The position numbers were made by a program, and so were the translations under genes. DNA of 64,000 nucleotides from Longimicrobiales bacterium. Its GTDB lineage: Bacteria; Gemmatimonadota; Gemmatimonadetes; Longimicrobiales; Gaopeijiaceae. The stretch is from NCBI GenBank assembly GCA_965203485.1, contig OZ241892.1:1312001-1376000 (forward strand). The letters run 5' to 3'. The notes below the pieces were generated by a model. That model made no database searches. It saw only the letters and a list, made by a program, of their open reading frames with translations, and had not been told where the DNA came from. Numbering within the stretch: the stretch's first letter is position 1; every line of letters begins with the position of its first letter. Positions 26,816 through 49,408 of the stretch are shown here, piece after piece.

Positions 26816-27353
26816 TCACGGCGGCCCTTCCCAAACCCGAATGTGGTCGTGCCAGATGAGCCATAGCGCTTCGCCCGCGTAGCTCGCCGCGTATTCAGCG
26901 ATGGGAAACGCCTGGAACCCCTGGCAATGATGCTGCGGGAGATTGCATTCAGCGGACAGGTGACCACGAGTGACGAAGAGAAACGCTGGAGATTCTGAAT
27001 TCAGCGTACAGGACACCCCGCCGGGCCGCCACGACGTCCCCTTGATGGAACAATCGTGCCGAAATGCTAAGAAGGCCTCGACCGCCGACATCCAACGACA
27101 AGATATGATCGTCGGCGTCCAGGAAGTCCTGAGCATCAAGGACATGCCTATCGATCCTAATCTGCATTCCTGCAAGGCCCGCGGAGTCCGAAAGAAGACC
27201 ATTCCACGACACCACGCTGTCAGGATGTACGCTAGGTCCGCTATACACCTCATTGGTCGGTATAACCCTGAGGCGCCACGGAAACACATCACCTTCGTCG
27301 TCGCAGGCGCTGCTTGCGAGCACAAGCGCCATCCCGGCAAATCGGGCGTACAT
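26816..27353 (-). pseudogene. Putative lipoprotein gene, probably frameshifted near 27025
   Basis: MYARFAGMALVLASSAC lipobox-like start at 27353; that frame stops at 26949 while another frame continues with protein-like sequence to 26816. Confidence 0.45.
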
Positions 27354-28094
27354 GCGAATGAGCCGCGCGCTTCGTTTGCTATCGGCCGACATTATTGAGC
27401 CAAGTTGATCGGATGTGATTGGGATTCCAGTTGGAAGGCTCGTTTGCGCGCTCGGAACAGTATTGCGGGTTCTAGATCCGGCCCGGCGCCGAGAATCGGG
27501 AGGATGGATCGTGCACGTTCTGAACACTTCGATGACGTACGTAGACGGATACGTCGTGCTGTCTCCTGTTTCGTTATTTGTATCGATCAAGTCTTGAAAC
27601 AGTGCGGCAACGCTTCCTTCCGTTTCTGCCCTTCTTGTTGTTTCTTCGGCATTCTCGAAATCAAAAACGCCAGGAGCACCTATGCTCGCGGCATAGTTCG
27701 CCAATCCCTCAGAAAATGCGCACGTATAGGAAGAAGGAACCCACAAGTAGTGCGGATTGCATCGAGTCGTGGTCCACATGCCGCCGAGAGAAACACAATG
27801 CAGTGCATGGCCGTACTCGTGCGCAGCAACCCACTTGGTGCTCTTAGGGCTCAATACGATTTCGTTGTGGCGACGACTGAAGAAAGAACGATCGCCAGAA
27901 CCGATCCGCCATCGAACCGGTGGCGTACCGTAGCCGAAGTGCCCGCGAATGCGTGGGATCACTTCGTTCAAATGGCGCCAGCTTAAGTACACCGCGCGGG
28001 TGATGGCGACTTGAATCGTATCGCCGCATTGATGGGAGGCCGCGGTCCAGTATGGCGCGGCGACTGCCGGTCCTGCATACGCGGTGCCCGGCAC
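27354..28094 (-). pseudogene. Zincin/gluzincin metallopeptidase fragment in lower-GC islet
   Basis: VAAHEYGHALH plus downstream FSEGLANY; no signal peptide; reads in frame into the lipoprotein without a stop. Confidence 0.55.
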
Positions 28095-28272: not shown

Positions 28273-28343
28273 TGGCCCGTCGTCTAATGGCAGGACTCCG
28301 GTCTTTGGAACCGGCGGTGGTGGTTCGAGTCCACCCGGGCCAA
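28273..28343 (+). tRNA. tRNA-Gln (anticodon TTG), CCA not encoded
   Basis: Acceptor TGGCCCG/CGGGCCA, anticodon arm CCGGT-CTTTGGA-ACCGG, T arm GGTGG-TTCGAGT-CCACC. Confidence 0.96.
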
Positions 28344-28399
28344 CTGCTCCAACTTCGGAAGCCGTTTCCGGCGCGGCGCCTACCCGTTTCCCGGCGCCT

Positions 28400-28726
28400 T
28401 CAGGTTGGGCGGTTCGGAACCCCGCGTTCCCCGGCTCGTCGTTCCGCTGCCGCGATAGAGCGCTTCCTGTGCGTTGGACTCCGCCGCTCGCCCTTGGTGG
28501 CGTGCAGCCGCAGCCAAGCGTCGAAGTTGCGGCTGGCCCGTACCACGCCGTAGAACCAGCGGGGCGAGCGCCGCCCGCCGACGATCAAGTCGATCAGTAT
28601 GGCGACGATCGACAGGTTGAAGACCAGCAGGTCCTTGACTCCGTCGACGGCCAACTTGATCTGGAAGACGACGAAGTCGCGCGTGGCGACGGTCTTGGAG
28701 GGGCCGGTCGGTTCGGGCGTCCTCAT
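28400..28726 (-). CDS. Small hypothetical membrane-associated protein
   Basis: GAGGA RBS before ATG 28726; RDFVVFQIKLAVDGVKDLL hydrophobic/amphipathic core. Confidence 0.65.
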   Translation of the reverse strand: MRTPEPTGPSKTVATRDFVVFQIKLAVDGVKDLLVFNLSIVAILIDLIVGGRRSPRWFYGVVRASRNFDAWLRLHATKGERRSPTHRKRSIAAAERRAGERGVPNRPT

Positions 28727-28817: not shown

Positions 28818-30029
28818 TTACGCGTTCCCGCCGGGGCCGGCCGGACCGGCGCCGTCGGTCCAGCGGAAGTAGAAGCGCTGCCACAGCTGGCGTACCCGTT
28901 CTCTGAAGACTTCCTTGCGGTCCCCAGTGCGGTCCACTGGTTGCACCCAGAAGCGGCAGCCCTTCGGACCGAAGGACTCCGTGCGGGCCTGGCCCATTGC
29001 GAAGATCGGTTGCGTGAGCCGAAGAAAGTCCGCCGGGGCGTACTCCCGGCCCTCTTGAATGGCGAGGGCGTGCGCGACGGCGGCATCGCCGCCCCGGGCA
29101 GGCGGAAACGCGTGGAACGCCCTCATCCCGCCGTCGGTGAGTTCGACGCGCAGGATGAACTCGAGTCCCGTGGCTTCAGTGTACCAGCAGGGCGACGGGT
29201 CGATGCCGGTTCCCTCCAGCTGCCGCAGTTGGTTCTCCCGGTGTTCGGCGCGGCCCACGGCGTCGTCCCGTTCGCGCGCGATCGACTCCACTGCACGCTC
29301 CAGAGAATCTGCGACGGCGTTCAGCGAATCCGCCGCCGACCCGGCTAGGAGACGGTAGGCCTCCCTTCGCCGGGCGTCCGCCGACCGCAGGACCGCGCGA
29401 GCGTTCTCGAGGTCCTCCTCCAGCTGCTTCGCGCGTCCTGCCCTGGCCACGACGGAATCCACCTGCGCGGCCGTGAGGTCGCGCCTTCCTGCCAACTGCC
29501 GGCGCAACGCGTCGCCGAAGCGCCCCGTTTCTTCGGCCGCCGACTCGAGCGAGTCGATCCTGGCGGCCTGCCTGGCCAACGCCTGTTCGCTTCGCGCGAC
29601 CGAATCCTCGAGCCGGGCGATCCGGCCAGCCTGATCCAGAAGACTGTCGGCTTCGTCGTCGCCGCCGTCGTCGGCCAGCAAGGCGCGGGCGGCCCTTTCC
29701 CGCTCGGCGGCTTCGGTTGCCGCGCGCTCCGCCGAATCGGCCTTCGCGCCCAGGCGCCGCGCCTCCTGCAACCAAGCGTCGCTGTTGATGTAGGACGAGT
29801 CGCCGCCCAGCGCCATCCCTTCGAGAATGGCGCGGTCCACCTCGGCGTCGGCGAGCTCTTCCTCGGCATCGGCGCGGCCTGCCTCCGCCTGCTCCTTGGA
29901 GAGCGCCTCCCGTCCGAGCAGCGCCGCGGACGCCAAGAGCAGGATGAACACGAGGACGCTGAACGTTTCCGCAAGCGTCATGCCCAGGGCCAAGCCCTTG
30001 CGGTAGTGCTTCTTCTCGGCCGGGAGCAT
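28818..30029 (-). CDS. MotB/ExbD-like single-TM protein with long coiled coil and Cys-containing C-terminal domain
   Basis: Basic N-tail, TM GMTLAETFSVLVFILLL with acidic residue, heptad-rich middle, PSPCW...CRFWV domain; RBS AGGGGA. Confidence 0.6.
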   Translation of the reverse strand: MLPAEKKHYRKGLALGMTLAETFSVLVFILLLASAALLGREALSKEQAEAGRADAEEELADAEVDRAILEGMALGGDSSYINSDAWLQEARRLGAKADSAERAATEAAERERAARALLADDGGDDEADSLLDQAGRIARLEDSVARSEQALARQAARIDSLESAAEETGRFGDALRRQLAGRRDLTAAQVDSVVARAGRAKQLEEDLENARAVLRSADARRREAYRLLAGSAADSLNAVADSLERAVESIARERDDAVGRAEHRENQLRQLEGTGIDPSPCWYTEATGLEFILRVELTDGGMRAFHAFPPARGGDAAVAHALAIQEGREYAPADFLRLTQPIFAMGQARTESFGPKGCRFWVQPVDRTGDRKEVFRERVRQLWQRFYFRWTDGAGPAGPGGNA

Positions 30030-30039
30030 GGCGAATCCC

Positions 30040-31503
30040 CTATGCGCCCCGCGTCTTGCGCCGCTTCGGAACCAAGCGGGCCAGGAGACCGAAAGCGCGT
30101 CGCGCGACGGCGAGCGTCCAGCGCCCCCCGCGCGCCGCGGCCCCCAACAGTGCGCGAATCCAGTACGCCGTAGCAGGCATCAAGCGAGCGGCGGCGGCAG
30201 GCGGAAGCGGCGAGGCCGGAGCTGTTCGACGCGCGTCCGCCGTCGAGGACGCCGGCCGCTTCCGCGTCTCGGGCGCGCCTTCGTCGAGCGCGAGACTTGG
30301 TTGCCGCTTCCCGTCGCGTCCGGCCCGCTTCTTGGCTCTCTTCATCGATTCTGCCGCGCGCATTCGGCGCTCCGCGTCGTCCGCTGCCGAGGCCAGGGCC
30401 GAGAAGGAGCGGCCGGCGTCGGCCACGGTTGTTCCAAGCTGTTCCGCCCGCCCCACGAACGCGTCCAGCGAGCCGCCGAGGCGCTGGGCCGTCTGCTGCA
30501 ACGCCGCGGAGGCGGCTTCCGCGCTGTGGGCGGCGTGCTCGCCGAGGTCCGACACGGCGTGGTGCAAGCGGGCGATCTCCTGCTGCAGGGCGCGCGCCTG
30601 CCCCACCGCGCCGTCCATGGCCGCCGTCGCCTCGTTGCTGGCCTTCGAGAGCCCCGCGCGCGCCTGCTGGGAGGCGTCGCTCATGGCGCTCACGTTGCGC
30701 TGGACGCGTCCCAGCGCGCCGCCCAGCGCCTCGGCCTCTCCGCTCAGGTCCGCGATACCTCGCTTGGCTCCGTTCATGAGCTCGCGAAATCCGGAAGCCG
30801 CGCCGCCCAGCTCGGCCACCGAGTCCTTGAAGTCGCCGGCGCCGCTCGCAAGGTCGCGTGCCGTCTCGGTCACCTTCGCCGAGTACTCGCCCAAGGTCTT
30901 GGCGGTCGATGCGGCCCGCTTCGCGGATCCGGCGATGTGGTCGCCGGTCTTCTGAACTTCGCGCGCCGACGTGCGCAGATGGCCCATGATGTCTTCCATG
31001 CTCTGCGCGCCGCTGACCACGTTGCGCTTCATGTCGTCGATGGCCTCGGCCAAGCCGTGGGTCGCTTCCGCGACTACGTCGCCGGGAGACGCTTGGAACA
31101 CCGAGAACCAAACGCGTCCTGCGAGGCCGACGATAGTGGTAACCAGCGCGATCCCCAGGTTGCCGACGAGCGACATCGTGTCGGCGATCTCGTCTTCGCC
31201 GCCCGCGCCCGCCTGCAGGGTGAACTCGATCAGGGCCGCGACCATCGACGCGAACGTGAAGAGCAAACCCAGGTAGTAGATGCAGTCGCCCTTCGTGTCG
31301 GGCCCGACGTATTCGTTGCCGCGTGCAGTAAGCGCGTAGACGCCCATCAGAACGGCCAGCGCGGAGGCGATGACCCACTCGTTCCAGCCGAGAGAACGGA
31401 AGAGCACGAGCGTCGCCGCGCCGGTCGCCAACACCGCGAACCACGTCCGGTTGTGGTCGCGCCGGCCCCGCTCCGCGCCCTCCGCGCGCTCCTGCTCGGT
31501 CAT
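30040..31503 (-). CDS. MotA/TolQ/ExbB-like membrane protein with long helical tail (ZorA-like architecture)
   Basis: YYLGLLFT and GIALVTTIVGL TM motifs followed by roughly 250 aa of Ala-rich heptads; ATGA overlap with upstream gene. Confidence 0.65.
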   Translation of the reverse strand: MTEQERAEGAERGRRDHNRTWFAVLATGAATLVLFRSLGWNEWVIASALAVLMGVYALTARGNEYVGPDTKGDCIYYLGLLFTFASMVAALIEFTLQAGAGGEDEIADTMSLVGNLGIALVTTIVGLAGRVWFSVFQASPGDVVAEATHGLAEAIDDMKRNVVSGAQSMEDIMGHLRTSAREVQKTGDHIAGSAKRAASTAKTLGEYSAKVTETARDLASGAGDFKDSVAELGGAASGFRELMNGAKRGIADLSGEAEALGGALGRVQRNVSAMSDASQQARAGLSKASNEATAAMDGAVGQARALQQEIARLHHAVSDLGEHAAHSAEAASAALQQTAQRLGGSLDAFVGRAEQLGTTVADAGRSFSALASAADDAERRMRAAESMKRAKKRAGRDGKRQPSLALDEGAPETRKRPASSTADARRTAPASPLPPAAAARLMPATAYWIRALLGAAARGGRWTLAVARRAFGLLARLVPKRRKTRGA

Positions 31504-32324
31504 CCCTCCACCAAGACCCAGCGGGGCCGCGCCCGCAAGTCCGCTTCCTGATCGACGAAGTAGTCCTCCCAGAACGCCTCGAGCCGGGCTCCTTGAATCC
31601 GGCCGGCGCGGTCCCGGCGGGCAAGCAGAAACACGGTCGCCTCGGCGCCGTCCAAGTCCACCCGCAGGGTTTGGTAGGCGGGATCGCCGGCGAAGGCGCC
31701 GAAGTCCGGAGTCTCCCGGAAGAAGGACAGATCGGCGGAGTGCTGAACCATGTCGGACACCATGAGCAGATGGCGCTCGATCGCGGCGTCCCTCGGCTGG
31801 AAGGCGTCGACGGACGCCGTCTGGATCGCCTCCACGATCGGCGACGCCGTGTCGCCGGCTGCGCCCAGCAGGGCTCCGAGGGCTTCCTCGACCGGGTCCA
31901 GGAATTCCCGGCGGTAGCGCCTGCGGGCAAGATCGCGGTTCACCCACAGGCTCTCCAAGCGGCCGATGCCGGCCGGGTCGCGGGGCTTGCAGATCCGATA
32001 CTCCGGGGCGGCGTCGCCGCGGCCCGCCCGCGCGACGGCGTACACTCGTATCTCGGCGGATTCGGGGAGTCCTTCCAGCGCATCAATCACCCTGGGCGCC
32101 GCCGACAGTTGCTGCACGCCGCTCAACTCGTCCGACGGATCCAGCAGAACGACGGCCTGGGCCGCCGGCTGAGCGCCGACGAGGCAGTGGTCGTCGTCCT
32201 TCGCCGCGTCCTGGCTCTGGCCCAGCACGACCAAGGTCAGGAGGACCAAGCCACCCGCGATCGCCGTCGCAACGCCCCACCGGGTCTTGCGGCGTTCCCT
32301 GCGCCGGCGCGCCTGCCTGCTCAC
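31500..32324 (-). CDS. Membrane-anchored vWA-like protein
   Basis: Basic N-terminus plus TM, VVLLDPSD, SPIVEAI, LLMVSDM alpha/beta pattern. Confidence 0.6.
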   Translation of the reverse strand: MSRQARRRRERRKTRWGVATAIAGGLVLLTLVVLGQSQDAAKDDDHCLVGAQPAAQAVVLLDPSDELSGVQQLSAAPRVIDALEGLPESAEIRVYAVARAGRGDAAPEYRICKPRDPAGIGRLESLWVNRDLARRRYRREFLDPVEEALGALLGAAGDTASPIVEAIQTASVDAFQPRDAAIERHLLMVSDMVQHSADLSFFRETPDFGAFAGDPAYQTLRVDLDGAEATVFLLARRDRAGRIQGARLEAFWEDYFVDQEADLRARPRWVLVEG

Positions 32325-32336
32325 GAAGCCCTTCCG

Positions 32337-33806
32337 CTACTCATGATGCAGCGCCGTGACGCGCTCCACCTCGGCCTCGCACTTCTTGAAGCACCCCTGC
32401 AGTTCCCGGATGCGGGCATCCAGCGCGTCCTTGGCAGCCTGGCTGCGCCTTGCCGCCTCGGTTTCGTCGCCGATGTCCGCAGGCGGGGGCGGCTCGGGCA
32501 GTTCCCATTCGACCTCCAGCTTGCCCTCCAGCGGAACGTTCCACGCTTCGGGCGCCGGTTCGCTTCGGGCGCCGCGGTTCTCCGCCCGGTAGGCGCCGAC
32601 GGCGCCCGAGCACGCCTTCCTCAGGTCGGACGAGAAGCGGCAGAACTCGTCGTGGAGCCCTTGCAGTTCGGCGGCCGCTTCCTGGCCGCGCTTCCACAAG
32701 TCGGTCGGATCGGCAAACTCCTTGCGTTGCTGCAGAACAGCCTCGTCGAACTGGTCCCTGAGCCGGTCGAGCACTTCGCGCTCTTCCTCCAGGACGACGT
32801 TCTCCGCGCCGCGCCGGGCCGAGACCACCTTGCCGTATCCGGGATACGGATCGGTCATGCGCGACCACTCCCATGCGGCCGCGCCGCACATCGCCAAGCC
32901 GAGCAACAGCAGCATGTAGGACTGAAAGCCCTGAAGCGAGAAGCCTTGGGCGGCGAACAGGCAGACGGCCTCGCCGTCCGCCGCCGCTTCGTCGTCGCCT
33001 CGCCAGCAGCTCTCGCTGCCGGCTTGAGCCCCGGCCGACTCGCCCGGCGGCCCGCCCAGCATGCCGTCGTCCTGCACCACGGCGGAGCCCGGTTCCGGGG
33101 GATAGTCGGGCGCCAAGGCTTCCCGGTAATGCGCCACAGCCAGGTTCCAGCCGACCGCGCCCGCGACCACCACGGTCACCAGGATGCATCCGACGAACTT
33201 GCGCAACTGGTCGCGGTGCAGTACTTGGCGGCCGAACCAAGTTGCGAGCAGGCCGACCACCCCGACGTTGATGACGCTGATCAACGCGGCGTACGTGAGT
33301 CCCCCGACCAGGCTTCCCTCGAGGTTGGCGCCGAAGAAGAGTCCGTTGACTACGGTCTCGACGACAACGAGCCCGACCAGGACGCCCATCGACCAAGACC
33401 GGTTCTCGGGCAGCCGTGCCGCGCGCTCGAGGCGGTGGTCGTCCTTGAACTTCTTGACCTCGTCGATCGCCTCTTGGGCCGACCGCGCGAGGCGCTGCAG
33501 TTCGTGGCGCTCGCCGGCGACCATGCGGTCCATGGCGTTGCACGCCTCCTTGACGCGCGCGCCGGGGTCGGCGTCGCTCTTCGGGTCCACGCTCGAGTCG
33601 ATGCGGTCCTCGAGCACCCGGCGCTGTCTGGCGTACGCCCGGCGCTCGCTTGTGAAGCGCCCGGTGCAGTCGCTGACCACTTCCGTCTCGACCGCGTCCG
33701 GCCCTGGCTGCGTTGCCGGCGGCATGTTCATTTTGCCCCGCTCGCGCCCTTTGGCGACCAGCCGGTGGCGGGAGACCAGCGACTGCACGTCGGGAACCCT
33801 TGTCAT
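32337..33806 (-). CDS. Four-TM membrane protein with N- and C-terminal coiled coils
   Basis: Hydrophobic segments with polar E/N residues (VVVETVVNG, VINVG, GWNLAVAHYR), DPYPGYG after TM4; start 33806 or 33731. Confidence 0.7.
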   Translation of the reverse strand: MTRVPDVQSLVSRHRLVAKGRERGKMNMPPATQPGPDAVETEVVSDCTGRFTSERRAYARQRRVLEDRIDSSVDPKSDADPGARVKEACNAMDRMVAGERHELQRLARSAQEAIDEVKKFKDDHRLERAARLPENRSWSMGVLVGLVVVETVVNGLFFGANLEGSLVGGLTYAALISVINVGVVGLLATWFGRQVLHRDQLRKFVGCILVTVVVAGAVGWNLAVAHYREALAPDYPPEPGSAVVQDDGMLGGPPGESAGAQAGSESCWRGDDEAAADGEAVCLFAAQGFSLQGFQSYMLLLLGLAMCGAAAWEWSRMTDPYPGYGKVVSARRGAENVVLEEEREVLDRLRDQFDEAVLQQRKEFADPTDLWKRGQEAAAELQGLHDEFCRFSSDLRKACSGAVGAYRAENRGARSEPAPEAWNVPLEGKLEVEWELPEPPPPADIGDETEAARRSQAAKDALDARIRELQGCFKKCEAEVERVTALHHE

Positions 33807-34107
33807 GTCCGACGGGGCGGGGGAGTCGGCCGTGGCGTGGTCAATGCGGGTTCCGTCGCGGAGGGAATGGGCGTTCTTGGCGAAGAAAGCTGGCGGGGGC
33901 GGGCCGCCTGGGACTCGCCAGCTGCCCTTTGGCGGCGTCTCCGGCGCCCGGCCTATGTTGTCCGGCGTCGCGTCGCCGGGTGGGCGCGTCGCCCTCGCAG
34001 GCCGCTCTCCGGCTCCGCGAGCCCGGCGGCCCCGGACGCGAAACATCCGTGCGCGAGTGTTGCCCGAAGGGCTCCTACGCCGCCCAATTCTACGGAGTTT
34101 CGCCCCC

Positions 34108-36201
34108 ATGCGTCCAGCCCTGAAGCGCGCTCTCGGCTCTTGGGCGCTGGCGACGTGGGCCGTGCCCGCGGCGGCGGGAACGATCGCGGGCGACCATTCG
34201 GCGGAGGCGCGGGCTCCTGCGGGCGCGCCGGCCGGGGCCGCCTCGGCCAGGCTGTGGCGCGGCTGCCCTGCTCGGGCGCCGATTCCCGCGCGGGCGTACC
34301 CGACGAGCGCCTGTCCCGGCGCCCGGAAACATGCGGCGGCTCGGCAGGCGGCCGATCCTCAGGTCTCCCGTGCCCGACGGCTCGCCGAACGCGACTCCGC
34401 CCGCGCCCACGACCGCGCCCGCCGCCTCCAGGCCGGCTTCGAGAGACGGCGCCTGCACCGGAGCCCGCGCGCGTCCGGCGGCTCCCGCCGGTGCGATGAA
34501 GTCGTGGGCCGGCTCTGCGTTTGGCACGGCGACGAGCCCGACTCGCTGCCCCCGGAGCCGGTTGCGGTCGGCGCGGCCCGAGCGGGCCTCCTCGCAGACC
34601 TGGATTCGCTTGCCGGCCTGGCCCCCGGCGACCACTGGATCTTCGGCCAGCGAATTCGCTACATGGCGGAGGCGGGCCACCTCGCCGCCGCCGCCCGGCT
34701 GGCTCGCGCATGCGGACTTCCGGAACCTTGGCGCTGCACGGCGTATCTCGGCTTCGTCCACCACGAGGCCGGCGACGCGCAGTCCGCGGAAGCGGCGTTT
34801 CGCGCGGCGCTGGCAACCATGCCGGCCGGCCGAGCCGCGCAATGGGCCGACCCTTCGCCGGTCCTGGACCCCGGCCTTCGCCGCTGGCTCGAGTCGCGCC
34901 CGGACTCCGCGGCCGCCGCGGCCCACCTCTGGACGCTGGCCGACCCTCTCTTTCTTTCCAAGGGCAACGAACGCTGGGCCGGGCACCTGAGCCGTTGGAC
35001 CTACGCCATGAGCGCGGAGCGGTCTTGGAGCCCTCATCAGATGCGCTGGGGCGACGACCTGACGGAGGTCGTCGTGCGCTACGGCTGGCCGGCCGCGTGG
35101 GAGCAGTCCTGGCCCTCGGCGGGCGAGGCGACCGGCGCCGCGGTCGGGCGCGAGCCGCCCGGAGCGCGCCGCGCCTTTCCCCCTCGCGCCGTGCTCGAGC
35201 CCGGCCTGGGGCGCGCGGAGCCCTGGCCGCCCCCGTCCGCGGGGGGACAGGCCATCTACGTCCCGCCGTTCCTCGACTCCATCGGCGTCCTCGCCGCGCA
35301 GGTCGGCCGCTTCTGGAGGCCCGGCGGCGTCCTGGTGGTCGCGGCGGCCGAGGTGCCGGACCTGCCCGTCCCGAAGCGCGAGAGCCCGGCGGGCGCCGGC
35401 ATGGAGCAGGCGACGCTCGACGCAGGCCGGGCAGGGTCCGGACGGCCCGTTCCGGCCGCCATGGCCGGACTCTTCCTCGCGCGCGACGGCGAGATCGCGA
35501 TGGAGGCTTGGCGCGCCGCTCGCCCGGGCACGACCGTCCGCTTTGCAAGCTCGGCGCCCGTCCGCGGCGCCGGCGTGGTCAGCGTGGAGACGTGGATTCC
35601 CGCCGGGCGCGTCGCCCATCGAGTGCGCGTCGGCATGGCGCTTCCGGCGCTCGTGCCCGGGTTGCTCGCCATGTCCGACTTGGCGCTCCTGGAGGCGTCG
35701 GCCGAGCCCCGCGACGCCCTCGAGGCGGCCGGTGCCCTCAGGACGGGCGCGGCCTACCGGGGCGCCGACTCCATCAATCTGGCGTTCGAGGTGTACGGCG
35801 CGGGCGGCACGCAGGCGACGGTCTCGTTCGCCGCTTGGGTGGAGAGCAGGGAAGGCCTGCTCACGCGCCTAGCGCGACGACTCGGCCTCGCCGGACCCCG
35901 GCGCGCGGCCTTCGTCGAATGGGCCGAGCCTGGGCCGCCTGCCTCCGCGCCGCTGTTTCGCACCCTGCGAATTCGCTTGCCCGCGCTCGCACCCGGCGCG
36001 TATCGGTTGACGGTTGAGGCGTCGGCGCAAGGCAAGCTGCCCGCCCGCCGCAGCCGCCGCTTCACGGTCGACTCCCCGGCGCGGAGGCGAAAGAACTGGC
36101 GCGCCCAGCCCTCCGTGGCCAAGTTGCCCCGCAGGAGAGCCGTTCGGCCCCCGGTCGGCTCCCAGCCCGGTCCGCCTTCCCGCCCAACCAAGGAGAATCC
36201 C
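34108..36201 (+). CDS. Secreted GWxTD-like domain protein (no stop before the next gene; same frame)
   Basis: Signal-like N-terminus, LWTLADPLFLSKGNER...WGDDLTEVVVRYGWP, MSDLAL, beta-rich tail ending RRFTVD; end coordinate is nominal. Confidence 0.55.
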
Positions 36202-37995
36202 GTGAAGACGCGTTTCGCCGTTGCGGTTGTCTCCGTCCTTGCCTCGGCGCCGTCCACTGCCGCGCCGCAGCTCTCCCAATTGCCGGCCGGCGCCGAGTAC
36301 GGAAGCCACGCCGTGGGACTGGCCGCGGGCTTCGCCGTGGACTCCCGGCACCGCTTCGATCCTTGGAACGCGCACTACGGAAGGGCGCCGTACCGCGCCA
36401 TGCTGCGGCGGGTCGAGGCGTCAGGGCAACGCCGCGCGGTCGCCTTCCATCTCTGGTATCCGGCGGCGCCGGCGCCCGGAGGGGAACGGCTGGTCGGCCT
36501 TCGCTCGCCCTTTCCGGCCGCGAGCGGACGGCGCGCCGTTTACCCGGACCTTTTCTTTCAGGACTCGGCCGCCGCCGCCGCCGCTGTAGCGGGAGAACTC
36601 GAGGCCGGCATGATCCATTCCGCCGACGAAGGCGAGCTGGATCTCGGCGTGCACCAAGCCGCCGTGAGCCGGCTGGCCGCGACGATGGTCGGCCAGCCTC
36701 TGGGCGCTTGGTGGAACGCCCGGCCCGCGGACGGCGCCTTTCCCTTGGTGCTCCTCGCGCACGGACTGGGAGGCAACTCGGCCATGTGGGCCTCCCTGGG
36801 CGAGTTCCTCGCGTCCCACGGCTACGTCGTGGCCGCGCCCACCTTCGTGTCGGACGGCTCGCCCGCCCTGGTCTTCCACGACGAGGACTCGCCCTACGCG
36901 GACCGGGCGTCTCCGGCCGAGCTGAGGCGGGCGTACGGCTTGCTCGCGGGCGAACCCAAGGTCGTCCCGTACTTCTACCGGTTCTTGTTCGGCCGCGAAG
37001 TCGGCGAAGGACCCGGCTCGCTGGACGTGGTCGACGTGGGTTCCGTGAGCCTCGTGCCCGGCGGCGTGGAGCGCGCGACGACGATGATGCGCAATCTGTT
37101 TCGGCAACGCGTGTCGGACTTCGGCTTGCTTCTCGGCACCGTCCGCCTGCTGGGCGAGGAACGCGGCACGTGCTCGGTCGCGCTTTCGTCGATGGGGGCC
37201 ACGAGCGCGGCCCGCGATCTCTGCGGGCTGCTGGAGGGCCGCCTGGACGATCGGCCGGCCGGCGCGGCCGGGCACTCCCTGGGCTCGATGACGGCGCAGC
37301 TCGCGGCCAACCACCTGCCGGGCGTGGCGGCGGCCGCCGGCTTCAACAACGGGCCTCCCTTCACGTGGACCCCCGAGGAGATGCTGGGCGGCCGGGAAGC
37401 CGAGGACGGACTGCCGGGAGGGATAGAGAAGCCTCTGCTGCTGATGATCGGCGACGAGGACGCCTTCGTGCAGTCCGTGTTCGTCGGCCTGTTCCAGTCG
37501 ATGGTTTCCCGAGCGGGCGGCGACCCCGCCGCGGCGTTTCCGCTGGCGCCGGAACGGGCCCTGCCCGAGCGCGACGACAATCCCCAGCCGGTGGCGCTCA
37601 GCACGTGGCGCCGGGCCGGCGCAGCCCGCATGCTGGTCACGGTGCGCGACGTCGACCACGGCATTCTCGTGGTCGACTTGCCCCGCGTCTTCTCGTGGAC
37701 GGCCTTCCAGCGCGGCGAGGCGGCCTTCGGCTTCGCTCCGATGCGCCGGCGCAAGCCCACCGGAACGGACGCGCTGGCCCGCAGTCCCGCGCCGGGCGAG
37801 CCGTTCGACCTGCTGGGCTGGGCCTCCGCGGGCGCTTCGGGCGAGGTCTACATGCCCCACGTGGTGCGCGACTGGTACCTGCACGCTTGGTTCGACTGGC
37901 ATCTCAAGGACGACGAGGAAGCCCGCGCGCGCCTTGCCGGCGACGATCCGTTCGGCGGCATGACCCACGCGCGCAAGGATCTTTCCCGGCCGTGA
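36202..37995 (+). CDS. Secreted alpha/beta hydrolase (PAF-acetylhydrolase/dienelactone hydrolase-like)
   Basis: AAGGAG RBS plus GTG, signal peptide, FPLVLLAHGLGG, LASHGYVVAA, GHSLG nucleophile elbow, DVDH. Confidence 0.75.
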   Translation: MKTRFAVAVVSVLASAPSTAAPQLSQLPAGAEYGSHAVGLAAGFAVDSRHRFDPWNAHYGRAPYRAMLRRVEASGQRRAVAFHLWYPAAPAPGGERLVGLRSPFPAASGRRAVYPDLFFQDSAAAAAAVAGELEAGMIHSADEGELDLGVHQAAVSRLAATMVGQPLGAWWNARPADGAFPLVLLAHGLGGNSAMWASLGEFLASHGYVVAAPTFVSDGSPALVFHDEDSPYADRASPAELRRAYGLLAGEPKVVPYFYRFLFGREVGEGPGSLDVVDVGSVSLVPGGVERATTMMRNLFRQRVSDFGLLLGTVRLLGEERGTCSVALSSMGATSAARDLCGLLEGRLDDRPAGAAGHSLGSMTAQLAANHLPGVAAAAGFNNGPPFTWTPEEMLGGREAEDGLPGGIEKPLLLMIGDEDAFVQSVFVGLFQSMVSRAGGDPAAAFPLAPERALPERDDNPQPVALSTWRRAGAARMLVTVRDVDHGILVVDLPRVFSWTAFQRGEAAFGFAPMRRRKPTGTDALARSPAPGEPFDLLGWASAGASGEVYMPHVVRDWYLHAWFDWHLKDDEEARARLAGDDPFGGMTHARKDLSRP

Positions 37996-46178: not shown

Positions 46179-46441
46179 AATAGCGGCGCAGGGCAACGGC
46201 GCCGTGGACGCCACGGCAACGGGCGAACCCGGCGTCGCGACGGCGAGGAGCAACGCGTCCCAGCACGATCCGCGCGACATGGTCCCGAGCGTCCTGCTCG
46301 ACCAATCGCGCTAATGCCGCGCTTCGCCCGCGTCCGAAGCTGCCAAGACCAGCTCCAGAGCGACGCGGTGAGCAAACTCAGCCTCGTCGGCTGGCCGGCG
46401 CCCGCGTCGAGACGACCTCGATTGCTCCCCGAGGCCGTGAC

Positions 46442-46986
46442 CCCGCCTTATCCGCACCACCGCCTCGCGGCAACAGTGCGTCTCGACGCGGGCGAGGACG
46501 CCGAGCACGAACTCCGTCCCGCCCGCAGCCGTGTGCGCCTTGCCTTCCCGCAGACGAGCGTCCAGCAAGTCGCCCGTCTCCGCACGCCCGCTGGCCGCCA
46601 GCCGCAACGCCGGATCGTCCCGCAACGCCGTCGCGTCGTCGTGGTCCCGCCGGCCCTGCGCCGCCAGCACGCAGACCGCGCGCACCAGCTCCGCCAGCGA
46701 ATGGCGAATCCGGCGCGGGTCCCGAGCGTCGTCGATGCGCTCGCTCATCCAACGATCCACGCCGCTCCCGCTCAACGCCTCCCGGCACAGCGCCGCGCCC
46801 GCGTCGCCCGTCACCTTGTCCGGCCGAACCTCGAGGCGCACCGACTTGCTGCCGAAACAGCCCCTTGTTATCTTCACCTCGGCGTTGCGCGCGGCGGGCC
46901 ACCGGTTCTCGGCCGAACACCTTGAACCTACTGGCCTCGCCGCCGCACGCCACCCCTTCACCACGCTCCCTCGTGAATAAGGCGGG
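46442..46986 (-). mobile_element. Internally deleted IS1380-family element (non-autonomous, about 545 bp)
   Basis: Perfect 10-bp terminal inverted repeats CCCGCCTTAT; encodes TGDAGAAL, DARDPRRIRHSL, DDATALRDDP and LLDARLREG segments typical of IS1380 transposases; no target duplication seen. Confidence 0.8.
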
Positions 46987-47011
46987 CGTCTGGACGAGAG
47001 AGGATCGGTCC

Positions 47012-47449
47012 ATGCCCACGAAGAACTTCACGCGCCTCGCCGTCGCGCTGGCGGCGACTTCCGTTGTTGCGGTTTCGGCTTGCTCGGAGGTCGTCAGCCC
47101 GATCACCGACGCGGAGCCGTTGTCGCTTCCGGAGCCGGACACGTATGTCGCTCGCGATCGCGAGGGCGCCGTTCTGGCAACCGGAAGAATCTCGCACTCG
47201 CCGGCAACGGAGCGGATAAGCTGGGCGTTCTCCCACGCCTTGCCCGTACGGGGGGGCTTGATGGCCCGCATAGCGAGTTACTCCGGTCCGGACCCCGAGT
47301 GCCTCTCGAGCGTCTACGCCTCGGAGGAAGAGCTCGCCGAATGGGCAAAGTGCGTCAACAGGTTGTTTGAAGAAGACGCGGGGTGCGAAGTGGTCGTGAC
47401 GGAGTACTTCAGGAAGACAGGCGAACTCCACGCACACTGCATGGAATAG
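47012..47449 (+). CDS. Putative lipoprotein
   Basis: GAGGA RBS, MPTKNFTRLAVALAATSVVAVSAC lipobox, four further Cys. Confidence 0.65.
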   Translation: MPTKNFTRLAVALAATSVVAVSACSEVVSPITDAEPLSLPEPDTYVARDREGAVLATGRISHSPATERISWAFSHALPVRGGLMARIASYSGPDPECLSSVYASEEELAEWAKCVNRLFEEDAGCEVVVTEYFRKTGELHAHCME

Positions 47450-47662
47450 CAGGAGGAGAGCCGGTCTGGCCTAGCGGCGCCGTCGCTCCACGACGCGTCT
47501 TCGCATCGTGCGCTCGCGCCCGCGCGGCCACGTCGCCGCCGGCACGGTGCGCAAGCTGGGCTTCGAGCGCCTGCTGGACCGCAGGCGCGAAGAACCCGCT
47601 CGCTGGCGGTGTGCCGACGTGATCTCGGCGTACTTCGAGGGCCGGCATTGCCCGCCGGCGAC

Positions 47663-49408
47663 TCACTTGATCCACGGTTCGTATTGAAGGATCGCCGCCT
47701 TGGCAAGGACCTCGGGAATGCGGATCAACAGCGCGGTTCCGGCAGCGTCCGTCACGTGCAGCCCCTCGCCCGGCGCGAAGGCCACCGGTTGATCCGCGCC
47801 CTGGTTGATCGTGGCGCCGGAGACGTAGAGGCTGGTTCTGTCGTGCGCGTCGCGGACGGGATTGAGCCGTGCTCGGAGTCCCGGCACTTCGCCGGCGCCG
47901 TCAGCGAAGACGACGGAACCGCCGCCTCGAAGGGCGGCAAGTTCAAGGTCGATCGAGAACCCGTTCCGCATCGGCACCCATTCCCGGACGACGCGCGCGG
48001 CGAAGCCGGGGGCCGCCGCAAAGAGCGTAATGGGAAGGTGCGTCGAGTGCAGGTCGGCGAAGGCCGCGCCCTCCACGTTGGTCGCGGCACGTCGGTACGC
48101 GCCGTCGGGGAAGATCAAGAGGAGATCGGCGTCGGCGACCGGTCGCCCTTTCGACAGGACCGTCAAGGCAACGTGGCCGGGAGTCCAACCAAGGGGCGCG
48201 GCGGGAATCGTGAGGCGCAGTTCGGCGGCGCCGATCAACTCGTAGGACGGGGGCTTGGCGCCGAGAGCCTCCGTCTCCCGACGGATGATGCCCACGCCGT
48301 CGCCGCGCTTCTCCATGAAGTACTGGCGGTCGCCGGAGCCCTTGACGCCGGTGCAGCTCATGCGCGCCAACGCGGAGGCCAGGATCTCGTTCCGCGTGGC
48401 CTGCTGGCTGTCCATGATGTCGACCCTGAGGCCGTTGGCCAGCGGGCCGGGCGACTGAATCTCCACCCTGTCCTCGAACACCGACACTCGAATTCGGCGT
48501 TCGGAAATCGAGTAGTCGCGGTGCGCCACCGCGTTGACCACGGCCTCGAATACGGCTCTGTCGCCGTACTGCGGGAGGTCGATCCGGCCGGGCTCCTTGC
48601 GGGCCGCGATGCGCATGTTGCGCAGGACGAAGGCCACCGTGGCGCCGATCTGCTTGTCCAGCGGCCCGCAAATCGTCTCGGCGTCGACTTGCATGGAGGC
48701 GCGGTCCGTCCCTCGATAGCAGGTCGCCGTCACGCATGCATGGCCGAGCCACGTTTCCGGCGCTTGGGCACACAGCAACAGGCCGGCCACGGACGCCCTG
48801 AGGGCTCCCCGCTCGTCCCGCGCCAGCAGTCCCATCTTCTCCAGCGCGACTTCGGGGTCCGCCATGCCGTGCACGCTCACGAGGCGCTTCCACAGAGTCT
48901 CGTCCAAGCTCTGGAAACCCGTGTCGGGCACAGCGGCCTTGTCCAACCATGTGAAGCGCGACATGGCGCGCTCCTGGGCAAGCCGCAACCGCTGGTCGCC
49001 GGTCATCTTGATCTTCGACGACCCGATGCGGTGGTAGCTGCCGCCCGGACTGTCGTGTTGCGAGCGTCCCCTGGGCACCGCAACGACCATGACGTGCTTC
49101 CCCTCGAGATCTCGCCGATGAATCTGCACGGGCAAGGGAGGCTCGATGGACTGGGTGCAGACCTCCACCAGCACGCGGTCCAAGGCGTCCATCTGCTCGC
49201 GCGTCATTCCTTGGACGTCCCCTTGATCGGTAGCGCCGAACACGACGACGCCGCCTTGGCTGTTGGCGTAGGCCGCGATCTCGTCCGCGATGTCGTTTCG
49301 CTTGGGGGCCTTGAGACGGGCGCCTCCGAAACGCACCTCCTTGAACTCCCACCCGCCGTCCTCGCCGGCCTTCAGACGGGACAGAAGCTCTTCCGGAGGG
49401 TACTTCAT
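47663..49408 (-). CDS. Schlafen/AlbA_2 domain plus HATPase_c_4 (RecG-C-like) protein with beta-rich C-terminal domains
   Basis: GEDGGWEFK, IAAYANSQGG, EAVVNAVAHRDYS, IQSPG, RNEILA, EKRGDG. Confidence 0.82.
   Translation of the reverse strand: MKYPPEELLSRLKAGEDGGWEFKEVRFGGARLKAPKRNDIADEIAAYANSQGGVVVFGATDQGDVQGMTREQMDALDRVLVEVCTQSIEPPLPVQIHRRDLEGKHVMVVAVPRGRSQHDSPGGSYHRIGSSKIKMTGDQRLRLAQERAMSRFTWLDKAAVPDTGFQSLDETLWKRLVSVHGMADPEVALEKMGLLARDERGALRASVAGLLLCAQAPETWLGHACVTATCYRGTDRASMQVDAETICGPLDKQIGATVAFVLRNMRIAARKEPGRIDLPQYGDRAVFEAVVNAVAHRDYSISERRIRVSVFEDRVEIQSPGPLANGLRVDIMDSQQATRNEILASALARMSCTGVKGSGDRQYFMEKRGDGVGIIRRETEALGAKPPSYELIGAAELRLTIPAAPLGWTPGHVALTVLSKGRPVADADLLLIFPDGAYRRAATNVEGAAFADLHSTHLPITLFAAAPGFAARVVREWVPMRNGFSIDLELAALRGGGSVVFADGAGEVPGLRARLNPVRDAHDRTSLYVSGATINQGADQPVAFAPGEGLHVTDAAGTALLIRIPEVLAKAAILQYEPWIK

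What the first reader, a model, noticed from the sequence alone, without database searches (positions are those of the whole stretch)
28818..33806. Candidate undescribed membrane-motor system: 4TM protein + vWA-like + ZorA/MotA-like + MotB-like operon beside tRNA-Gln
Seen: four co-oriented minus-strand genes with 12-bp, -4-bp (ATGA) and 10-bp junctions, all membrane-associated. They lie in a block separating tRNA-Gln from prs. Gene 3 has TM motifs resembling MotA/TolQ/ExbB plus a long helical tail; gene 4 has a MotB/ExbD-like acidic TM. Known: MotAB, ExbBD, TolQR, AglRQS and ZorAB are ion-driven stator complexes, and Zorya couples ZorAB to soluble nuclease/helicase effectors. Inference: this is an ion-motive-force-driven complex whose partners are a periplasmic vWA-like protein and a 4TM coiled-coil protein instead of TonB/TolA, flagellar parts or ZorC/D/E. 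It matches no system I can name. Anti-phage defence (envelope sensing with a membrane effector) or envelope remodelling/adhesion are both plausible.
Basis: partly seen in the sequence, partly recalled or inferred. Interest (0 to 1): 0.85.

Follow-up and report, generated by a model that had tools for sequence, protein, structure and literature searches.

The report
Undescribed stator-like envelope motor cassette
Four adjacent membrane-protein genes form a widespread, undescribed cassette that pairs a distant relative of bacterial ion-driven membrane motors with two unknown partners and, in many other bacteria, with a DNA-cutting enzyme outside the cytoplasm, so it may guard the cell envelope against incoming DNA.

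Summary
The four genes and their junctions are real. G3 is a distant ZorA/MotA/ExbB relative with the pore threonines conserved (T83 in 125 of 125). G4 has an invariant membrane Glu in the register of the ZorB Asp (101 of 101). G1 (4TM, no specific fold match) precedes G2 (probable vWA) in 171 of 173 loci. This pair is the constant core: followed by the motor in 97 of 162 loci, by a VirD4-like coupling protein in one clade of mobile elements, or by neither. A secreted or G4-fused nuclease accompanies 17 of 49 motor lineages and 0 of 27 motor-less ones, but this genome has none. Defence genes are enriched nearby (25 of 53 versus 4 of 40 control sites). It is not Zorya, Ton or Tol, and six literature searches found no description. 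Best reading: an ion-driven envelope machine acting against incoming DNA (about 0.5); function untested.

The parts
32337..33806 (-). G1, 489 aa: four TM helices (about 140-158, 170-192, 207-225, 294-312) with conserved intramembrane polar residues (E150, N154, N180, R228), a periplasmic loop, and long N- and C-terminal cytoplasmic helices; no known family or specific fold
   Evidence: pLDDT 93, pTM 0.75; E150 in 155 of 156
31500..32324 (-). G2, 274 aa: N-terminal TM anchor plus periplasmic domain, probably vWA with a MIDAS-like set (D62-x-S/T64-D65, S161, D191) and a conserved Cys pair (C47, C112)
   Evidence: D62 in 201 of 201; D191 in 199 of 201
30040..31503 (-). G3, 487 aa: ZorA/MotA/ExbB-like subunit; four TMs, of which TM3-TM4 carry the conserved T83 and T122/T123; about 350-residue helical cytoplasmic tail
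28818..30029 (-). G4, 403 aa: B subunit; single TM with invariant E21, coiled-coil stalk, C-terminal cap
28860..29189 (-). G4 periplasmic cap (about residues 281-390), TolR/ExbD-like fold with an invariant Cys pair; replaced by an OmpA domain in many homologs
28273..28344 (+). tRNA-Gln(TTG); neighbour only, not a conserved part

Best explanation
G3 and G4 form an inner-membrane ion-driven motor of the MotAB/ExbBD/TolQR/ZorAB type: a G3 ring whose threonines surround the G4 Glu21, a long cytoplasmic G3 tail, and a G4 stalk whose cap grips the cell wall or a periplasmic partner (homology shown; 5:2 assembly and ion flow inferred, about 0.85). G1 and G2 are the constant module that the motor serves: G2 presents a metal-dependent binding site in the periplasm and G1 spans the membrane with buried polar residues (conservation shown; roles inferred). 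The most likely job is envelope-level defence against incoming DNA: G2/G4 sense a phage tail or mating apparatus that disturbs the wall, the motor is switched on, and entry is blocked or the DNA is cut in the periplasm by a secreted or G4-fused nuclease where one is present (inferred). This genome's copy has no such nuclease, so here the output would be blocking, ion leakage or an unlinked effector.
For: G3: best PDB profile hit is ZorA 8vvn (E 0.33), with 8vvi also listed; 12 of 41 TM domains hit PADLOC ZorA2, best E 1.5e-4; pairwise HH comparison 76%/E 2e-5 with a type II ZorA and 54%/E 1e-4 with this genome's three MotA/ExbB-family proteins; T83 125 of 125, T123 121 of 125. G4: E21 101 of 101; cap is either OmpA (8 of 10 homologs submitted, 5 over the Pfam cut-off) or TolR/ExbD-like, the two known B-subunit caps. 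Nuclease fused or within 2.5 kb in 14 of 21 OmpA-type and 3 of 28 TolR-type lineages versus 0 of 27 motor-less; two unrelated nuclease families (SNase, DUF1524-type HNH) are fused to G4 behind the OmpA domain. PADLOC hits among the 5-6 nearest genes in 25 of 53 motor loci versus 4 of 40 control sites; copies sit inside a type III CRISPR locus (L218), between Shango and pPIWI-RE (L167), and a G1-G2 pair faces a full Zorya II (L249). Patchy distribution and plasmid carriage.
Against: No function tested. All homology scores are weak. This genome has no SNase or DUF1524 nuclease and the five window neighbours scanned show no defence domain in Pfam. In its own lineage the defence enrichment rests on candidate PADLOC models: named systems only, 5 of 27 versus 2 of 20, p=0.68. 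16 of 26 other motor loci had no clear defence neighbour. Mobile cargo of any function collects near defence genes. No ZorC/D/E/F/G-type effector. Microbulbifer keeps G1-G2 at a fixed housekeeping site in 21 of 22 loci, and one clade couples G1-G2 to a conjugative coupling protein, which points to DNA transfer rather than defence.
Confidence: 0.5

Rival explanations
1. DNA-traffic machine rather than defence: G1-G2 is a membrane conduit or docking module that is energised either by the ion motor or by a VirD4-like ATPase, used for DNA transfer or for taking up and degrading extracellular DNA as a nutrient.
For: G1-G2 directly precedes a T4SS coupling protein in L077, L228, L232 and L240 (Pfam) and, by sequence resemblance only, L241; at least three of these elements carry a serine recombinase by motif; they form one clade (support 0.976). 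Secreted nucleases fit DNA scavenging as well as defence. 24 plasmid records carry G2.
Against: No transporter, competence or nucleoside-salvage gene recurs among 150 neighbours of 39 motor loci. The coupling-protein form is one derived clade. Defence-neighbour enrichment is not predicted.
Confidence: 0.22
2. Tol/Ton-like envelope-maintenance or adhesion motor, with G2 as a TM-anchored vWA force transducer as proposed for TolQR-vWA loci (PMC12204202).
For: TolR/ExbD-like or OmpA cap on G4; TM-vWA proteins next to tolQR genes are described; PBP1A genes lie upstream in L133 and L202; stable retention in many Longimicrobiales.
Against: The genome has three other MotA/ExbB-family and three ExbD genes. 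No outer-membrane partner, TonB or TolB recurs nearby. G2 has no SHLS-type His in its TM. Nuclease fusions and the ZorA-like tail are unexplained. The closest genome of the same genus gave no match.
Confidence: 0.18
3. G3-G4 is a degenerate stator that no longer rotates and acts as a gated ion leak (abortive infection) or as a scaffold that merely tethers a nuclease.
For: Glu replaces the canonical Asp; sequence similarity to stators is confined to two helices; no load protein of known type.
Against: Invariance of both the Thr ring and the acidic residue across phyla argues for a working ion path; both cap types are those of working motors.
Confidence: 0.1

Closest known systems
Zorya ZorAB (types I-III; PDB 8vvn, 8vvi; PMC11890865, passages read)
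   Same: A subunit with MotA-type pore helices, Ser/Thr ring and long cytoplasmic helical tail; single-TM B subunit with an acidic residue; PG-binding OmpA cap in the OmpA-type homologs; found near defence genes.
   Different: Four TMs in G3; Glu instead of Asp; TolR/ExbD-like cap in this genome; long G4 stalk; no ZorC/D, ZorE or ZorF/G; two upstream membrane genes; associated nucleases are extracytoplasmic.
ExbBD / TolQR and the TM-vWA transducer loci (PMC12204202, passages read)
   Same: TolR/ExbD-like cap on the B subunit; a TM-anchored vWA-like protein next to the motor genes.
   Different: The described loci are TPR-tolQ-tolR-tolR-vWA with an SHLS motif, or tolQ with vWA as the B subunit. 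Here there is a 4TM G1, a tailed A subunit, a separate B subunit, and no SHLS, TonB, TolA or TolB.
SNIPE (bioRxiv 10.1101/2025.11.03.685801, passages read)
   Same: Concept only: a membrane-placed nuclease that cuts phage DNA during injection. A DUF4041 gene lies near one homologous operon.
   Different: SNIPE is one protein with a cytoplasmic GIY-YIG domain and no motor; the nucleases here are SNase or HNH on the periplasmic side, and are absent in this genome.
Flagellar MotAB, AglRQS, GldLM (recalled)
   Same: Same motor superfamily or the same 5:2 layout.
   Different: No flagellar, gliding or type IX genes among neighbours.

Membership tests
MotA/ExbB/TolQ/ZorA superfamily (G3) | Two pore helices with conserved Thr/Ser ring | tested here: met
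   T83 125 of 125; T123 121 of 125 plus 3 Ser; aligned to the ZorA and ExbB ring positions. Scores are weak.
MotB/ExbD/TolR/ZorB (G4) | Single TM with conserved acidic residue | tested here: met
   E21 in 101 of 101; in register with the ZorB Asp, pairwise E 0.08. Glu, not Asp.
5:2 ion-driven motors | Pentamer around dimer, ion-coupled | not testable with these tools
Zorya I/II/III | ZorB with OmpA-type PG-binding domain | tested here: not met
   P0004 has no Pfam or ZorB hit; the cap is TolR/ExbD-like. Met only in OmpA-type homologs.
Zorya I/II/III | ZorC+ZorD, ZorE, or ZorF+ZorG in the operon | tested here: not met
   G1 and G2 hit no PADLOC model at E<=1; no such gene next to 53 motor loci.
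Zorya I/II/III | Long cytoplasmic tail on the A subunit | tested here: met
   Median 310 residues after the TM domain in 122 homologs; PADLOC ZorA1 tail hits E 3e-6, partly generic coiled coil.
Zorya I/II/III | Anti-phage activity | not testable with these tools
   Neighbourhood evidence only.
ExbD/TolR periplasmic domain (G4 cap) | ExbD/TolR fold | tested here: inconclusive
   TolR ranks 1 and 2 (Z 5.9, 4.2 A, 94 aligned; Z 5.5, 2.7 A, 71 of 74) and ExbD Z 4.7 (2.8 A, 69 of 73), but RNase H-like folds score 4.9 and Z<8 is common; no sequence signal.
vWA domain (G2) | MIDAS-type DxS...T/S...D motif | tested here: met
   D62, S/T64, S161, D191 conserved in 191-201 of 201; assignment of the motif is from recalled vWA anatomy.
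vWA domain (G2) | vWA fold or profile match | tested here: inconclusive
   Atlas feature hit 0.85 to a cluster with 44% VWA_2; 0 of 136 members hit a Pfam vWA model; no PDB sequence hit; HH 1%; G2 was not folded alone.
TolQR-vWA transducer loci (PMC12204202) | SHLS motif in the vWA TM; TPR-tolQ-tolR-tolR context | tested here: not met
   No His in the G2 TM or consensus; gene order differs.

The most novel reading that the evidence does not exclude
G1-G2 is a new trans-membrane DNA-handling module that plugs into either an ion-driven rotary motor or a VirD4-like ATPase; with the motor it forms a periplasmic checkpoint that catches and destroys phage or plasmid DNA before it reaches the cytoplasm, using a nuclease carried on the stator's own B subunit.
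Probability: 0.3. Interest if true: 0.92.

Novelty: new variant of a known kind. Interest (0 to 1): 0.78.

Why it matters
Only a handful of uses are known for 5:2 ion motors. This cassette would add one whose load is an unknown membrane protein pair, whose B subunit naturally swaps between the MotB-type and the TolR/ExbD-type cap, and which repeatedly recruits extracytoplasmic nucleases. If it is defensive it would place DNA destruction in the periplasm, a step earlier than Zorya or SNIPE. The G2 family spans 2,457 clusters at 50% identity, and an intact copy with its nuclease lies on plasmid pRL11 of Rhizobium johnstonii 3841 (RL_RS31080-RL_RS31100), so it can be tested directly.

Tried and rejected
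G1-G2 complex prediction: no answer (score 0.04, mark 0.32), neither for nor against binding. G1 fold searches: no Foldseek hit at E<=0.001; VIA gave only generic helical bundles, Z<=10.1; Atlas clusters unnamed. Foldseek on the G4 cap: no hit at E<=0.001, TolR at rank 40. Pfam, NCBIfam and PADLOC on the four proteins: nothing over a cut-off; SMC, JetC, apolipoprotein, MCP and DotZ hits rejected as coiled-coil noise. tRNA-integrated island: rejected, no att repeat beyond a 12-bp match outside the block, no GC shift. Viral contigs: 0 of 52 candidates confirmed. G3 elsewhere in five motor-less genomes: 0 of 5, without a positive control in that call. Literature: searches found no description of this gene set; the one pRL11 hit (PMC4149787, two passages) lists other tags and could not be tied to the operon. 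Supplementary tables of defence-prediction papers were not searched and could list these families; subscription papers are not covered. A regex count of the G4 Glu was mis-specified and replaced by the alignment count.
Full report
Observation. Codon-position GC and homolog-supported starts mark them as real genes. The genome (G000, one contig, 3.56 Mb) holds a single copy. Its closest homologs are in records titled Longimicrobiales or Gemmatimonadota. None of the four proteins passes a Pfam or NCBIfam cut-off, and the only PADLOC signals are coiled-coil-type hits such as the ZorA tail. The position next to tRNA-Gln is incidental.

Distribution. A G2 profile finds 2,457 clusters at 50% identity. 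It matches 28 of 401 genomes of this phylum (tally includes G000 and the unpublished G057), 28 of 401 in the class of a Ruegeria genome and 7 of 400 in the class of a Microbulbifer genome; the last two include the centre genome. It is on 24 plasmid records, mostly rhizobia and Paracoccus; all 8 records opened have the four genes in order. Across 204 loci, which are partly redundant, G1 lies directly upstream in 171 of 173 with enough sequence. Of 162 with enough downstream sequence, 67 continue with G3 and a G4 of this genome's type, 30 with G3 and an OmpA-type G4, 62 with neither and 3 with G3 only; one of those three has a divergent G4 with the Glu motif. Pairwise identities of the four genes co-vary (Spearman 0.38-0.77 over 50 loci). 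On a FastTree tree of 91 G2 sequences the window's copy lies in a clade (support 1.0) of Longimicrobiales plus two Rhodothermales, which suggests transfer between phyla; OmpA-type loci fall in at least three separate groups, and motor-less loci are nested among motor loci several times (midpoint root, deep branches weak).

G3. Profile search of the TM domain against the PDB ranks ZorA of Shewanella (8vvn, E 0.33) first and lists 8vvi (entries identified in PMC11890865). 12 of 41 members hit PADLOC ZorA2 at E<=0.1. Pairwise HH comparison gives 76% with a type II ZorA and 54% with this genome's MotA/ExbB-family proteins, over TM3-TM4 only. T83 is invariant in 125 of 125, T123 in 121, and an acidic residue at 73 in 125. 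These match the Ser/Thr ring that PMC11890865 describes around the ZorB Asp. The tail has a median length of 310 residues.

G4. E21 is invariant in 101 of 101 and aligns with the ZorB Asp, though that short alignment is not significant alone. The cap was folded with 113 sequences (pLDDT 87). Among 48,161 chains the two best are TolR domains (Z 5.9 and 5.5), and ExbD aligns over 69 of 73 residues at 2.8 A (Z 4.7). The scores are modest and RNase H-like folds are within 1 Z unit, so this is suggestive; I had guessed the fold from the alignment pattern before the search. In 8 of 10 distant G4 homologs submitted the cap is OmpA (5 over the cut-off). A B subunit that carries either of the two known B-subunit caps behind one conserved TM is the strongest argument that G3-G4 is a stator-type motor.

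G1 and G2. G1 folds confidently (pLDDT 93) into four TM helices between long cytoplasmic helices, with no specific structural match. E150, N154, N180 and R228 are conserved in 150-155 of 156. G2 has one TM and a domain with a MIDAS-like residue set and a Cys pair, consistent with the periplasm. The vWA fold is likely but unproven. In one metagenome locus an OmpA domain is inserted into G2 (L180), which places G2 at the cell wall. Whether G1 and G2 bind is open.

Nuclease link. After clustering G2 at 70% identity (114 clusters, 35 dropped for short flanks), a SNase or DUF1524-type HNH nuclease is fused to G4 or lies within 2.5 kb in 14 of 21 OmpA-type, 3 of 28 TolR-type, 1 of 3 G3-only and 0 of 27 motor-less representatives (17 of 49 versus 0 of 27, Fisher p=3e-4, kin not independent). 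The free SNases mostly have hydrophobic N-termini and intact catalytic motifs (motifs recalled); some fused ones (L055, L139) look degenerate. SNase density is about 10 in 22.8 Mb in five genomes, three of which were chosen for having the linked copy. This genome has neither nuclease, and only one of the 40 closest loci has one (L021).

Defence context. With PADLOC at E<=1e-15 on the nearest genes (my own gene calls, checked against annotation), 10 of 26 motor loci outside this lineage have a defence hit (150 of 152 selected proteins; I set aside housekeeping look-alikes at L049, L217 and L225 and the ambiguous L137) against 1 of 20 fixed-position control sites (methyltransferase and desulfurase look-alikes set aside), p=0.013. 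In this lineage 15 of 27 loci have a hit against 3 of 20, p=0.006, but ten are candidate models; for named systems it is 5 of 27 against 2 of 20, p=0.68. Single cases are striking: L218 lies between cas6 and csx1-cas10, L167 between Shango and pPIWI-RE, and at L249 a motor-less G1-G2 pair converges on a complete Zorya II. The window's own neighbours are a hydrolase, a peptidase and unknowns (Pfam only).

Coupling-protein variant. Among 26 motor-less loci scanned (129 proteins), G2 is directly followed by a VirD4-like coupling protein in four, with a fifth by resemblance (L241); these form one clade. The same G1-G2 pair thus sits in front of an ion motor or in front of a DNA-transfer ATPase. 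Both partners, and the nucleases, point to DNA at the envelope. This is inference from gene order only.

Mechanism and rivals. I rate the motor identity of G3-G4 at about 0.85 and a defensive role against incoming DNA at about 0.5, DNA traffic or scavenging at 0.22, Tol/Ton-like envelope or adhesion work at 0.18, and a non-rotating leak or scaffold at 0.1.

Comparison with known systems. It works like ZorAB in motor anatomy but is not Zorya: effectors are missing, and this copy lacks the PG-binding cap. It differs from the TolQR-vWA loci of PMC12204202 (passages) and from SNIPE (passages). Six searches of open full text (listings only, apart from the four papers read in passages) found no description. 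Earlier notes of this scan describe what appears to be the same cassette in other genomes; they are not independent support.

Verdict. A real, widespread, undescribed four-gene envelope system built on a divergent stator-type motor; new variant of a known kind; interest 0.78.

Noticed in passing
window 26949-28094 (-): 381-aa ORF with low GC (0.56, flat codon bias) between a methyltransferase-like gene and tRNA-Gln; no Pfam hit; probably a recent insertion or gene remnant.
   Followed up: partly
window 28400-28726 (-): 108-aa small membrane-protein ORF with a good ribosome-binding site, 92 bp downstream of G4; no Pfam hit and not found in 76 related loci.
   Followed up: partly
window 33184-37995 (+): One stop-free frame of 1,603 codons that seems to hold two genes in frame, the second an alpha/beta hydrolase; possible fusion or lost stop.
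   Followed up: no
window 46314-49408: A transposase-like remnant and a 581-aa AlbA-like/ATP-binding gene, judged by eye from the N-termini.
   Followed up: no
L180 1865-3133: G2 homolog with a complete OmpA domain inserted inside the vWA-like domain.
   Followed up: partly
L147 2365-4197: G2 homolog extended by about 340 residues ending in a TonB-C-like segment (by eye).
   Followed up: no
L077, L228, L232, L240, L241: Integrated elements with G1-G2-VirD4-like gene; a small Cys-containing membrane gene follows in L228 and L241; no mating-pore genes seen in the stretches viewed.
   Followed up: partly
L249 10432-13465: Canonical Zorya II (ZorA2, ZorB2, ZorE2) convergent with a motor-less G1-G2 pair in a genome of the window's own family.
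   Followed up: partly
L044-L076 (Microbulbifer): Motor-less G1-G2 fixed next to the miaB-phoH-ybeY-corC-lnt cluster (names recalled from motifs) in 21 of 22 loci.
   Followed up: partly
G000:C1 355001-369000 and 2134001-2148000 (L250, L252): Two of four control sites in this genome hit defence clusters (SspAB with a type III restriction enzyme; HEC-01 with PglX).
   Followed up: no
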